Origin: a virus
Lineage: Duplodnaviria; Caudoviricetes
Length of the DNA stretch: 64,000 nucleotides
Virus record (IMG/VR): IMGVR_UViG_3300029305_001557
Location: 12,396-76,395 of that record
Direction: 5' to 3' (one strand)
Shown: positions 61,012 to 62,177 of the stretch, one piece after another
Numbering within the stretch: the first letter of the stretch is position 1
How the letters are laid out: each line of letters opens with the position of its first letter
Notes under the pieces: generated by a model
What the model was told of the DNA's origin: nothing
The model's database searches: none
The model's input: the letters and a program-made list of their open reading frames with translations, nothing else
Made by a program: the position numbers and the translations under genes

Positions 61012-61072
61012 TGACCTGTCTCATCAGTTGCAGTTGGTCATTTCTGCAAGACCCTCCGAAGAGGGTTTCGAC
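61012..61072 (-). ncRNA. type II hammerhead ribozyme 1
   Basis: GTC-GAAA-CCCTC/GAGGG-TC^-TTGCAG/CTGCAA-CTGATGA-GAC; loop TGACC pairs with 3' GGTCA. Confidence 0.93.
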
Positions 61073-61485
61073 TATGCAATTCTGCGTGTTTTACCATTCA
61101 CACACTCAAAGTACACATACCCTAACTCACTACAGTCAGGAGCGTCAAGGTTCTCTACCCAAGCTAAACTACCTCGGGAGTTCATCTTGCCACTTTTCAG
61201 GGTCAGTTTAGACTTGTCTCTCACAAAGGTCAGGCAAGTTCCAAACATCGTGCTGTTGCAAGTAAACCACTTAATGCTCTTATCCTTATCACTGTTGTAC
61301 TTACGAGTAGCGTTCTCTACCACCTCTTTGGTCTTCTCTTCTTCGTCATAGTGGTACTGACCACTAAGCGTATGAAGTACATACCCTACGAGATGAGTTA
61401 AATGCTCCTCGCTCTCAACTGCTACGGTGAAGCCCATCATTGCGGCTTCTGCGTCAGCGTTCCATTTACTCTGTTGTTTTGTCAT
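61072..61485 (-). CDS. hypothetical protein
   Basis: Start MTKQQS after GAGGAG, downstream of hammerhead 2. Confidence 0.7.
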   Translation of the reverse strand: MTKQQSKWNADAEAAMMGFTVAVESEEHLTHLVGYVLHTLSGQYHYDEEEKTKEVVENATRKYNSDKDKSIKWFTCNSTMFGTCLTFVRDKSKLTLKSGKMNSRGSLAWVENLDAPDCSELGYVYFECVNGKTRRIA

Positions 61486-61511
61486 ATTAGACTCCTCACT
61501 CTCTTTAATTT

Positions 61512-61571
61512 GGACTGTCTCATCAGGTACAGTAGTCCGTCTCTGTACGACTCCCTTTCGGGAGTTTCGAC
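61512..61571 (-). ncRNA. type II hammerhead ribozyme 2
   Basis: GTC-GAAA-CTCCC/GGGAG-TC^-GTACAG/CTGTAC-CTGATGA-GAC; GGACT/AGTCC pseudoknot. Confidence 0.93.
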
Positions 61572-61573
61572 TG

Positions 61574-61843
61574 TTAAATGAATGGCAGGTTGCCAATGAA
61601 GTCTGCGTCTTGACTCTCAATAAGTGCCTTAGCGACTTCGTGGCTTGCTTCATTGCGTCCGTCATATCTGTACTCATCAGAAGCACAGGTACAGAGCCAA
61701 TGAATACACAGTCGGGTGAAAGACTGTTGAAGAGTCCTGTGTTCATTGCTCATTGCTTTACAGAACCCCTCATAGTCAAAGGTAAAGCTGTTAAGCATTT
61801 CAGAGACCTTTTGTGCGTTCTCTTTATTCTTAGCGTCTTTCAT
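61574..61843 (-). CDS. hypothetical protein
   Basis: Start MKDAKN after AAAGGA. Confidence 0.65.
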   Translation of the reverse strand: MKDAKNKENAQKVSEMLNSFTFDYEGFCKAMSNEHRTLQQSFTRLCIHWLCTCASDEYRYDGRNEASHEVAKALIESQDADFIGNLPFI

Positions 61844-62075
61844 TGTCCTCGTCCTTTCTAACAAATCTCTTAGCAGGGAAGAGCCAATTATAGAGCTTGT
61901 CTGCTACTACGAGCAGGATAAGACCTATCAGGCACTGCACCCAATTAAGAGTTACTGTTATGTAGGAGTCAGACAGAATACCACCGAGTATTAAAAACAC
62001 ACTCAGGACTGCTACACCATACAGCACAGCTTTGACAATGTTTCTCACCATTTTTGCTTTTTGCTTTTCGCTCAT
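61830..62075 (-). CDS. small membrane protein
   Basis: Two TM helices; downstream of hammerhead 3. Confidence 0.7.
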   Translation of the reverse strand: MSEKQKAKMVRNIVKAVLYGVAVLSVFLILGGILSDSYITVTLNWVQCLIGLILLVVADKLYNWLFPAKRFVRKDEDNERR

Positions 62076-62104
62076 TTTACTTTCCTCACTCTCTTAAAAT
62101 CACT

Positions 62105-62177
62105 TGACCTGTCTCATCAGTATCGGGTGGTCATTTCCGATAGACAAGAGAGGACTGTTGCCCTCTCTCGTTTCGAC
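62105..62177 (-). ncRNA. type II hammerhead ribozyme 3
   Basis: GTC-GAAA-long stem III-TC^-TATCGG/CCGATA-CTGATGA-GAC; TGACC/GGTCA pseudoknot. Confidence 0.93.

What the first reader, a model, noticed from the sequence alone, without database searches (positions are those of the whole stretch)
61012..62177. Early operon punctuated by three type II hammerhead ribozymes placed between stop codon and RBS
Seen: at 61012-61072, 61512-61571 and 62105-62177 each spacer begins at or within a few nt of the upstream stop codon with GTC-GAAA, has a GUC cleavage triplet, CTGATGA-GAC and a covarying 5-bp loop I/3'-tail pseudoknot (TGACC/GGTCA vs GGACT/AGTCC), and ends just before a GAGAGTGAG RBS region. 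Predicted cuts lie 3' of minus-strand C at 61050, 61549 and 62143. Established: this is the pseudoknotted type II hammerhead architecture, and cleavage leaves 5'-OH and 2',3'-cyclic phosphate ends. Inference: the phage self-processes its early polycistron into units with 5'-OH ends, which resist 5'-monophosphate-dependent decay and insulate translation, a natural RiboJ-like design. The cyclic-phosphate ends might also be Ro60 clients.
Basis: partly seen in the sequence, partly recalled or inferred. Interest (0 to 1): 0.8.

Follow-up and report, generated by a model that had tools for sequence, protein, structure and literature searches.

The report
Hammerhead ribozymes between phage genes
Three genuine self-cutting hammerhead RNAs sit between genes of one phage operon, a known arrangement, but here they occupy the same slots where related phages carry a conserved hairpin, which supports the idea that they cut the long message into pieces.

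Summary
Three complete type II hammerhead ribozymes lie on the minus strand at 61008-61073, 61507-61572 and 62101-62178. Each starts at or within 2 nt of a stop codon. Each has an intact core, compensating stem changes and a 5-bp loop I/3'-tail pseudoknot, and each is followed by the same AAGAGAGUGAG leader. The predicted cuts (after C 61050, 61549, 62143) are right. No further copies exist in the 76-kb genome.

The kind is already known. Perreault et al. 2011 described type II hammerheads, this pseudoknot, and clusters flanking single genes in prophages, with the same mRNA-processing idea. This scan has noted such arrays before in more than 100 other genomes.

New here: the three slots are orthologous to slots that in close relatives hold a covarying irregular hairpin of about 75 nt and 20-23 bp, which has no Rfam match. 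That hairpin is found in 16 of 25 relatives, and one copy sits in this operon at 59963-60064. It resembles the RNase III sites of T7 and SP82 early mRNA.

The host is probably a Firmicute, where ribozyme-made 5'-OH ends are RNase J1 substrates. The Ro60 link is unsupported. 'Early' is plausible but not shown.

The parts
63722..63750 (-). Promoter-like site TTGCAA-17-TATACT with TG (extended -10), the likely start of the operon transcript
   Evidence: sequence. Consensus match only; function not shown.
63289..63715 (-). Purine-rich leader of about 430 nt with no ORF, upstream of the first gene
   Evidence: No Rfam match. Only a 40-nt blastn match in one relative's locus (L168), on the opposite strand.
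63112..63288 (-). orf58, first gene of the operon
   Evidence: No Pfam or PHROG match.
62982..63111 (-). Junction 1: short hairpin with a P1-like helix (UUUAAGUAC/GUGCUUAAA) and a tiny P2. It looks like a reduced junction hairpin.
   Evidence: Read. Not significant with model R2, so this is a resemblance only.
62181..62981 (-). orfA (266 aa from the ATG at 62981), conserved in 13 of 25 related phages
   Evidence: Function unknown.
62101..62178 (-). HH3, type II hammerhead. Stem III is 12 bp, the pseudoknot is UGACC/GGUCA, and the cut is after C 62143.
61830..62075 (-). orf81, small membrane protein. Its ATG lies 67 nt after the HH3 cut, and the AAGAGAGUGAGGA leader lies upstream.
61574..61843 (-). 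orf89. It overlaps the end of orf81, so no spacer or ribozyme lies between them.
61507..61572 (-). HH2, type II hammerhead. Stem III has a GAAA loop, the pseudoknot is GGACU/AGUCC, and the cut is after C 61549.
61072..61485 (-). orf137, a single gene flanked by HH2 and HH1
61008..61073 (-). HH1, type II hammerhead. The TAG stop of orf137 supplies its first two bases. Stem III has a UUCG loop, and the cut is after C 61050.
60563..60982 (-). orf139, a Cys-rich protein. Homologues sit in ribozyme-rich operons of other phages.
60051..60570 (-). orf51 (60415-60570) and orf125 (60051-60428), joined by ATGA-type overlaps with no spacer
59963..60064 (-). Junction hairpin (P1, small internal loops, P2), homologous to the element that fills gene junctions in related phages. 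Its P1 includes the orf125 stop codon.
   Evidence: Model R2, built from relatives only, gives 33.3 bits, E 1e-5. This is the single significant hit in the window with filters off. No Rfam match.
59596..59940 (-). orf114, last gene of the operon, preceded by an AGAAAGAGAGUGAAAGAG leader
59556..59587 (-). Intrinsic terminator-like hairpin (14 pairs) with a T tract, the likely operon end

Best explanation
A transcript of about 4.2 kb, running from the promoter near 63722 to the terminator near 59556, carries three active type II hammerheads. Each folds as it is made and cuts itself after C17. This splits the message into four pieces of about 1573, 594, 499 and 1500 nt. Each upstream piece ends 22-38 nt after its stop codon in the stem III hairpin, with a 2',3'-cyclic phosphate. 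Each downstream piece begins, with a 5'-OH and no unpaired overhang, in the stem I hairpin (plus its pseudoknot), 63-67 nt before the next start codon. I infer that these structured ends, and not the end chemistry alone, uncouple the stability and translation of neighbouring cistrons. The hammerheads would then do, without a host nuclease, what the lineage's usual junction hairpin probably does through an RNase III-type cut. What is shown: the ribozymes, their geometry and the slot equivalence. What is inferred: cleavage in vivo, the effect on stability, and the hairpin's nuclease.
For: Ribozyme identity. Structure: 95.4% of cells paired across 72 relatives, against 30-39% in slid controls, and 4 of 5 pseudoknot pairs covary. 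Own-tail pseudoknot complement averages 4.96 against 3.08 +/- 0.07 for swapped tails. Stems I and III form in native context. Geometry is a family rule: in 136 of 146 relatives an ORF ends within -12 to +30 nt of the ribozyme start (23% at random positions), in 102 of 146 the stop overlaps or abuts the ribozyme, and the next start codon is a median 23 nt after the core. Slot equivalence: G001, G002 and G003 have orfA-hairpin-orf137-hairpin...orf139 where this phage has orfA-HH3...HH2-orf137-HH1-orf139. G020 has hairpin-orfA-HH-gene-hairpin. The same leader follows both elements. The hairpin is a covarying 20-23 bp irregular helix, like the RNase III sites in SP82 early mRNA (cited in PMC4838370). 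Published support: type II hammerheads near phage genes cleave in vivo (PMC8782182), clustered prophage hammerheads cleave in E. coli (PMC3088659), and the processing hypothesis is stated in PMC6765202.
Against: No cleavage data exist for these copies. The host is uncultured and only inferred. In Firmicutes a ribozyme-made 5'-OH end triggers RNase J1 decay in the glmS case, so cleavage could lower downstream expression instead of protecting it. Only 2 of 26 genomes of the lineage have hammerheads, so they are dispensable. The nuclease for the junction hairpin is a guess from its shape. HH3 is below Rfam's gathering score.
Confidence: 0.6

Rival explanations
1. Cleavage is a down-regulating device. 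The 5'-OH ends feed the downstream pieces to RNase J1, as with glmS, so the ribozymes set decreasing expression along the operon or shorten the life of these messages.
For: A Firmicute-type host is inferred. RNase J1 degrades the 5'-OH glmS product (PMC3328962).
Against: There is no ligand-sensing domain. The new 5' end is fully base-paired in stem I with no overhang. Each ribozyme is followed by a good RBS and an intact ORF. The same slots in relatives hold a stable hairpin.
Confidence: 0.15
2. The ribozyme-plus-leader cassettes mainly serve as portable gene boundaries. Shared 60-90 nt modules let early genes be shuffled between and within phages by recombination, and cleavage is secondary.
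For: Gene order differs between relatives around these junctions. HH1 and HH3 share loop and tail sequences and the same leader. A near-identical core occurs in at least 120 unrelated viral loci. orf139 homologues sit next to twister and RAGATH RNAs elsewhere.
Against: Recombination needs neither an intact catalytic core nor compensatory stem changes, yet both are kept. Exact shared stretches between copies are only 9-12 nt. This reading is compatible with the main explanation and is not exclusive of it.
Confidence: 0.1
3. The fragments released between two ribozymes (594 and 499 nt) are ligated into circles or spliced by a host RtcB-type ligase.
For: The end chemistry (5'-OH plus 2',3'-cyclic phosphate) is what RtcB joins. 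Perreault et al. raised this possibility.
Against: The phage has no RtcB. Perreault et al. looked for such products and found none.
Confidence: 0.03
4. The motifs are inactive relics or chance matches.
For: HH3 is below the Rfam gathering score. No activity data exist.
Against: E-values are 1e-15 to 1e-19 with nothing else above 12 bits in 64 kb. All core residues are intact and all helices are kept by compensating changes.
Confidence: 0.04

Closest known systems
Clustered type II hammerheads flanking genes in prophages and phages (Perreault et al. 2011, PMC3088659; Rfam RF02276)
   Same: Same ribozyme class, same short stem II with a loop I/3'-tail pseudoknot, and the same placement flanking single genes or small gene blocks on one strand of phage DNA. 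The same processing hypothesis applies.
   Different: This is a new phage, an uncultured 76-kb myovirus of a probable Firmicute. Here the slots can be matched to non-ribozyme hairpins in relatives, a comparison I did not find in the papers I read.
Type II hammerheads of Desulfovibrio vulgaris shown active in vivo by cyPhyRNA-seq (PMC8782182)
   Same: Type II hammerheads next to phage-like genes, two of them close together. Cleavage ends were captured in cells.
   Different: Different organism and genes. No data of that kind exist for this phage.
RNase III processing sites between early genes of T7 and of Bacillus phage SP82 (Panganiban and Whiteley 1983, cited in PMC4838370)
   Same: Structured elements at intercistronic positions of a phage polycistronic message, leaving hairpins at the fragment ends. 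The lineage's junction hairpin has a comparable irregular 20-23 bp shape.
   Different: Hammerheads need no host enzyme and leave 5'-OH and cyclic-phosphate ends instead of 5'-phosphate and 3'-OH. RNase III cleavage of the junction hairpin is untested.
RiboJ synthetic insulator (sTRSV hammerhead plus hairpin; own knowledge)
   Same: A hammerhead cuts off upstream RNA so that the downstream cistron has a fixed 5' leader.
   Different: RiboJ is a type III design with an added 23-nt hairpin that exposes the RBS. No such hairpin lies between the pseudoknot tail and the RBS here.
glmS ribozyme (PMC3328962)
   Same: A self-cleaving RNA in a Firmicute mRNA that produces a 5'-OH end.
   Different: glmS is ligand-dependent, sits in a 5' UTR and destabilises its mRNA through RNase J1. 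The hammerheads here have no sensor and sit between cistrons.

Membership tests
Hammerhead ribozyme type II (RF02276) | Conserved catalytic core: C3 U4 G5 A6 N7 G8 A9, G12 A13 A14, the A15.1-U16.1 pair, H17 | tested here: met
   CUGAUGA, GAAA, the A-U closing pair of stem III and C17 are present in all three copies.
Hammerhead ribozyme type II (RF02276) | Type II topology: stems I and III closed by loops, stem II open | tested here: met
   Rfam and own-model alignments. Stems I and III appear in MFE folds with native flanks.
Hammerhead ribozyme type II (RF02276) | Score at or above Rfam's gathering threshold (37 bits) | tested here: inconclusive
   HH1 38.8 and HH2 39.8 pass. HH3 scores 32.7 and does not. 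HH3 scores 62.0 bits, E 5e-15, on a subfamily model that did not include it.
Hammerhead ribozyme type II (RF02276) | Pseudoknot of 4 or more pairs between loop I and the 3' tail | tested here: met
   5 bp in each copy. Covariation across 72 to 125 relatives.
Hammerhead ribozyme type II (RF02276) | Site-specific self-cleavage | not testable with these tools
   Needs transcription and cleavage assays or end-specific RNA-seq.
Clustered phage/prophage hammerheads (Perreault 2011) | Several hammerheads on one strand flanking single genes or short gene blocks in phage DNA | tested here: met
   Three copies 499 and 594 nt apart, bracketing orf137 and orf81+orf89, in a complete phage genome.
RiboJ-type insulator | Extra hairpin after the ribozyme that keeps the RBS exposed | tested here: not met
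   Only an A/U-rich spacer of 4-8 nt lies between the pseudoknot tail and the AAGAGAGUGAG leader. It works like RiboJ but is not a member.
RNase III-type intercistronic processing hairpin (for the junction hairpin at 59963-60064) | Irregular double-stranded helix of about 20 bp at an intercistronic position, conserved by covariation | tested here: met
   23 and 20 pairs, 12 and 11 of them with compensatory changes, 98% of cells paired against 28-53% when slid. Arrays occur between genes.
RNase III-type intercistronic processing hairpin (for the junction hairpin at 59963-60064) | Cleavage by RNase III | not testable with these tools
   Needs an enzyme assay or an rnc mutant.

The most novel reading that the evidence does not exclude
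Hammerheads and the lineage-specific junction hairpin are interchangeable RNA-processing modules. This phage group would then be a natural swap experiment showing that phage hammerheads act as host-nuclease-independent substitutes for RNase III-type intercistronic sites. The hairpin has no Rfam match and has conserved mismatches inside a covarying helix. It could also turn out to be a new self-processing motif (I give that sub-case about 0.05-0.1).
Probability: 0.4. Interest if true: 0.6.

Novelty: new member of a known kind. Interest (0 to 1): 0.42.

Why it matters
The biological role of bacterial and phage hammerheads is still called largely elusive (PMC6765202). These three copies are ordinary members of a known arrangement, which this scan has also met in more than 100 other genomes. 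The lineage offers something useful, though. The same gene junctions carry a hammerhead in 2 genomes and a conserved processing-type hairpin in 17 of the 26 genomes (16 relatives and this phage), with the same leader after both. That makes the mRNA-segmentation hypothesis directly testable by swapping the two elements in one reporter. It also yields an unannotated RNA motif worth an assay.

Tried and rejected
- Megablast of the 6-kb region against isolated phages found no match.
- Pfam, PHROGs and the ESM Atlas on the flanking proteins gave no function.
- Relatives sought through the Ro60 gene and through orfA by word patterns: none found. orfA homologues were found later by a genome search.
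- Other ribozyme classes in the operon's remaining gaps and leader: no Rfam match.
- Twister-P1 and type III hammerheads in the 25 relatives: none. For twister the control genomes also stayed silent, so that absence is weak evidence.
- RtcB in the phage: absent, so I dropped the ligation and Ro60-repair idea.
- Reading the junction hairpin as a sigma-70 promoter (TTGACC ... TGAGAAT): rejected, because the spacer is 25-27 nt and the RNA helices covary.
- 'Near a terminus' as evidence for early expression: rejected. The 157-nt 'DTR' is only a 30-nt tandem array at both record ends, and relatives' arrays point both ways relative to their record ends.

Full report
**Observation.** The window is the last 64 kb of a complete 76,395-bp virus record, and all large ORFs are on the minus strand. 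Rfam's Hammerhead_II model (gathering score 37 bits) matches three minus-strand sites:
- 61010-61073, 38.8 bits;
- 61509-61572, 39.8 bits;
- 62103-62178, 32.7 bits.

The middle copy was lost by Rfam's speed filters in both larger scans and appeared only in a 111-nt scan. I therefore built my own model from 70 viral relatives plus HH1 and HH2 and ran it over the window with filters off. It finds exactly three hits, at 78.8, 69.6 and 62.0 bits, and the next hit scores 12 bits. HH3 was not in the seed, so its E of 5e-15 is independent. A hand-written core descriptor over the whole genome also finds only these three.

- GUC-GAAA at the 5' side;
- stem III closed by UUCG (HH1), GAAA (HH2) or a 12-bp stem (HH3);
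- GUC with C17 at 61050, 61549 and 62143;
- a 6-bp stem I that differs at four of its six pairs between copies with full compensation;
- CUGAUGA-GAC;
- a 5-bp pseudoknot, UGACC/GGUCA in HH1 and HH3 and GGACU/AGUCC in HH2.

**Family-level support.** On 72 aligned members, 95.4% of cells pair, against 30-39% when partners are slid. Fourteen of 20 pairs show changes on both sides, including 4 of the 5 pseudoknot pairs. Loop I pairs with its own 3' tail over a mean of 4.96 Watson-Crick pairs, against 3.08 +/- 0.07 for swapped tails.

The placement is a family rule. In 136 of 146 copies an ORF of at least 40 codons ends within -12 to +30 nt of the ribozyme start (23% at random positions). In 102 of 146 the stop codon overlaps or abuts the first bases. 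The next start codon lies a median 23 nt after the core. Sixteen of 121 locus-strands (counting this window) carry two or more copies, and some carry up to five copies a gene apart.

**The operon.** A promoter-like site with an extended -10 (63750-63722) is followed by an ORF-less leader of about 430 nt. Then come, in order:
- orf58;
- orfA;
- HH3;
- orf81 and orf89, which overlap;
- HH2;
- orf137;
- HH1;
- orf139, orf51 and orf125, joined by ATGA overlaps;
- a 110-nt gap;
- orf114;
- a strong terminator at 59587-59556.

None of the proteins has a family assignment. Cuts at the three sites would give pieces of about 1573, 594, 499 and 1500 nt. The 3' tails would be 22-38 nt long, ending in stem III. 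The 5' leaders would be 63-67 nt long, beginning in stem I. With native flanks, stems I and III form in the minimum-energy folds.

**What is known.** Perreault et al. 2011 (PMC3088659) reported the first natural type II hammerheads and the loop I/3'-tail pseudoknot, and showed that the pseudoknot is needed for fast cleavage. [quoted passage not shown] They tested three such tandem arrangements (Clostridium scindens, Azorhizobium caulinodans, Agrobacterium tumefaciens) and showed in vivo cleavage of the A. tumefaciens set in E. coli.

A 2019 review repeats the polycistronic-processing idea and says that more work is needed (PMC6765202). cyPhyRNA-seq showed three type II hammerheads near phage-like genes cutting in vivo (PMC8782182). 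This scan has also noted the arrangement before on other DNA: 134 notes in at least 118 genomes. The kind is therefore known, and these copies are new members of it.

**What this case adds.** I fetched 25 relatives through the large terminase, at 46-78% identity. Only one of them, G020, has a hammerhead, and none has a twister-P1 or type III hammerhead. orfA is conserved in 13 of the 25.

In G020 the hammerhead sits right after orfA, as HH3 does here. In the other 12, that same junction holds a different element of about 75 nt followed by the same AAGAGUGAGG leader. The element recurs at several junctions per genome. RNAalifold folds it as one irregular hairpin of 20-23 bp: a long-range P1, small internal loops with conserved bases, and a variable P2. 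Twelve of 23 pairs (type A) and 11 of 20 pairs (type B) show compensatory changes. About 98% of cells pair, against 28-53% when slid, and 0 of 500 shuffles reach the observed covariation. These structures were predicted from the same alignments, which favours them somewhat.

The element has no Rfam match. A model built from relatives only finds it in 16 of 25 relatives (9 of 11 complete genomes), in same-strand arrays of up to eight copies about 500 nt apart. In our window it gives a single significant hit, at 59963-60064, which is the gap before orf114 (33.3 bits, E 1e-5). The remaining gap (62982-63111) has a P1-like helix but is not significant with the model. The strict type A form occurs in only 8 viral contigs, so the element is restricted to this lineage.

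The slot map shows the equivalence:
- G001, G002, G003: orfA - hairpin - orf137 - hairpin ... orf139
- this phage: orfA - HH3 - orf81/89 - HH2 - orf137 - HH1 - orf139
- G020: hairpin - orfA - HH - gene - hairpin

All three hammerheads therefore sit in slots that relatives fill with the hairpin. Because the hairpin is common and the hammerhead rare in the lineage, the hammerheads look like secondary replacements.

The hairpin's shape recalls the RNase III sites between T7 early genes (own knowledge) and the Bs-RNase III sites in SP82 early mRNA (Panganiban and Whiteley 1983, cited in PMC4838370). That is an analogy, not a test. In another phage the orf139 homologue sits among twister-P1 ribozymes and RAGATH-4, -16 and -36 RNAs. 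This fits the published link between such genes and self-cleaving RNAs.

**Mechanism and its limits.** I commit to co-transcriptional self-cleavage that segments the message and gives each piece structured ends (confidence 0.6). The host is probably a Firmicute, on four grounds:
- a GH25+CW_7 lysin;
- lysin relatives from phages of Gram-positive hosts such as Lachnospiraceae, Clostridium and Streptococcus;
- nearest isolate by TerL is Bacillus phage BCD7, 56% identity;
- SD motifs of 5 nt or more before 75 of 112 ORFs, against 5% at random positions, although my start-picking favours such motifs.

In B. subtilis the glmS ribozyme's 5'-OH product is degraded by RNase J1 (PMC3328962). The 5'-OH alone should therefore not protect. 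The fully paired stem I at the new 5' end, and stem III at the new 3' end, are the more likely protectors (inference).

A terminating ribosome on the upstream stop codon would cover stem II and half of stem III. Folding therefore probably precedes the first ribosome (inference).

The Ro60 idea has no support. The TROVE gene (54357-56000) with a YrlA-like RNA (56255-56371, 38.4 bits, below the cut-off) is a separate module, and the phage lacks RtcB. 'Early' rests only on position, small ORFan genes and a host-type promoter. The record's 157-nt 'DTR' is a 30-nt tandem array at both ends, so the physical ends are unknown.

**Verdict.** The hammerheads are new members of a known kind. The added value is the hammerhead/hairpin slot exchange and an unannotated junction RNA motif.

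Noticed in passing
window 59963-60064 (-); relatives L168-L180, for example L170:2277-2369 and L175:1404-1499: A covarying junction hairpin of about 75 nt (P1, conserved small internal loops, P2) with no Rfam match. It forms arrays between small genes in 16 of 25 related phages, and one copy sits in this operon. 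It is a candidate RNase III-type processing site or a new processing RNA.
   Followed up: partly
window 54357-56000 (-) and 56255-56371 (-): The phage encodes a TROVE/Ro60 protein with a vWA domain. A YrlA-like Y RNA match (38.4 bits, below the gathering score of 69) lies directly upstream, next to the tRNA cluster. Other notes of this scan already cover it.
   Followed up: partly
window 56767-56869 (-): A 103-nt tRNA-like sequence scores 44 bits with the Rfam tRNA model, but ARAGORN does not call it as a tRNA.
   Followed up: no
window 63844-64000 and genome 1-157: Both record ends consist of five copies of one 30-nt tandem repeat. The 157-nt 'direct terminal repeat' is therefore a repeat array, and the true genome ends are unknown. 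The ribozyme operon's promoter lies about 100 nt inside it.
   Followed up: partly
window 63289-63715 (-): A purine-rich leader of about 430 nt with no ORF lies between the promoter-like site and the first gene. It has recurring GACAGUG-type words, no Rfam match, and almost no similarity in relatives' loci.
   Followed up: partly
L122:1798-4654 (+): In a 112-kb viral contig the orf139 homologue lies in an array of two twister-P1 matches (62.9 and 47 bits, both below the gathering score of 67.2) and RAGATH-4, RAGATH-16 and RAGATH-36 RNAs (all above gathering score).
   Followed up: no
window 58793-58821, 57665-57693 and 58484-58512 (-): Two perfect TTGACA-17-TATAAT promoters with TG, and one 11-of-12 match, lie downstream of the operon's terminator. 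One of the perfect sites lies directly in front of the tRNA cluster.
   Followed up: no
window 22727-23785 (-): A reverse transcriptase (RVT_1) lies next to tail genes, probably a diversity-generating retroelement. Other notes of this scan cover it.
   Followed up: no
viral loci L001-L120: In this hammerhead subfamily the upstream stop codon supplies or abuts the ribozyme's first bases in 102 of 146 copies (TAG-TC in 64, xxA-GTC in 31). I did not find this regularity stated in the papers I read.
   Followed up: partly
window 61509-61572: Method note: a 39.8-bit hammerhead, above the gathering score, was missed by cmscan's filters in the 64-kb and 6-kb scans and by the own-genome family search. 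It was found only in a 111-nt scan or with filters off.
   Followed up: yes
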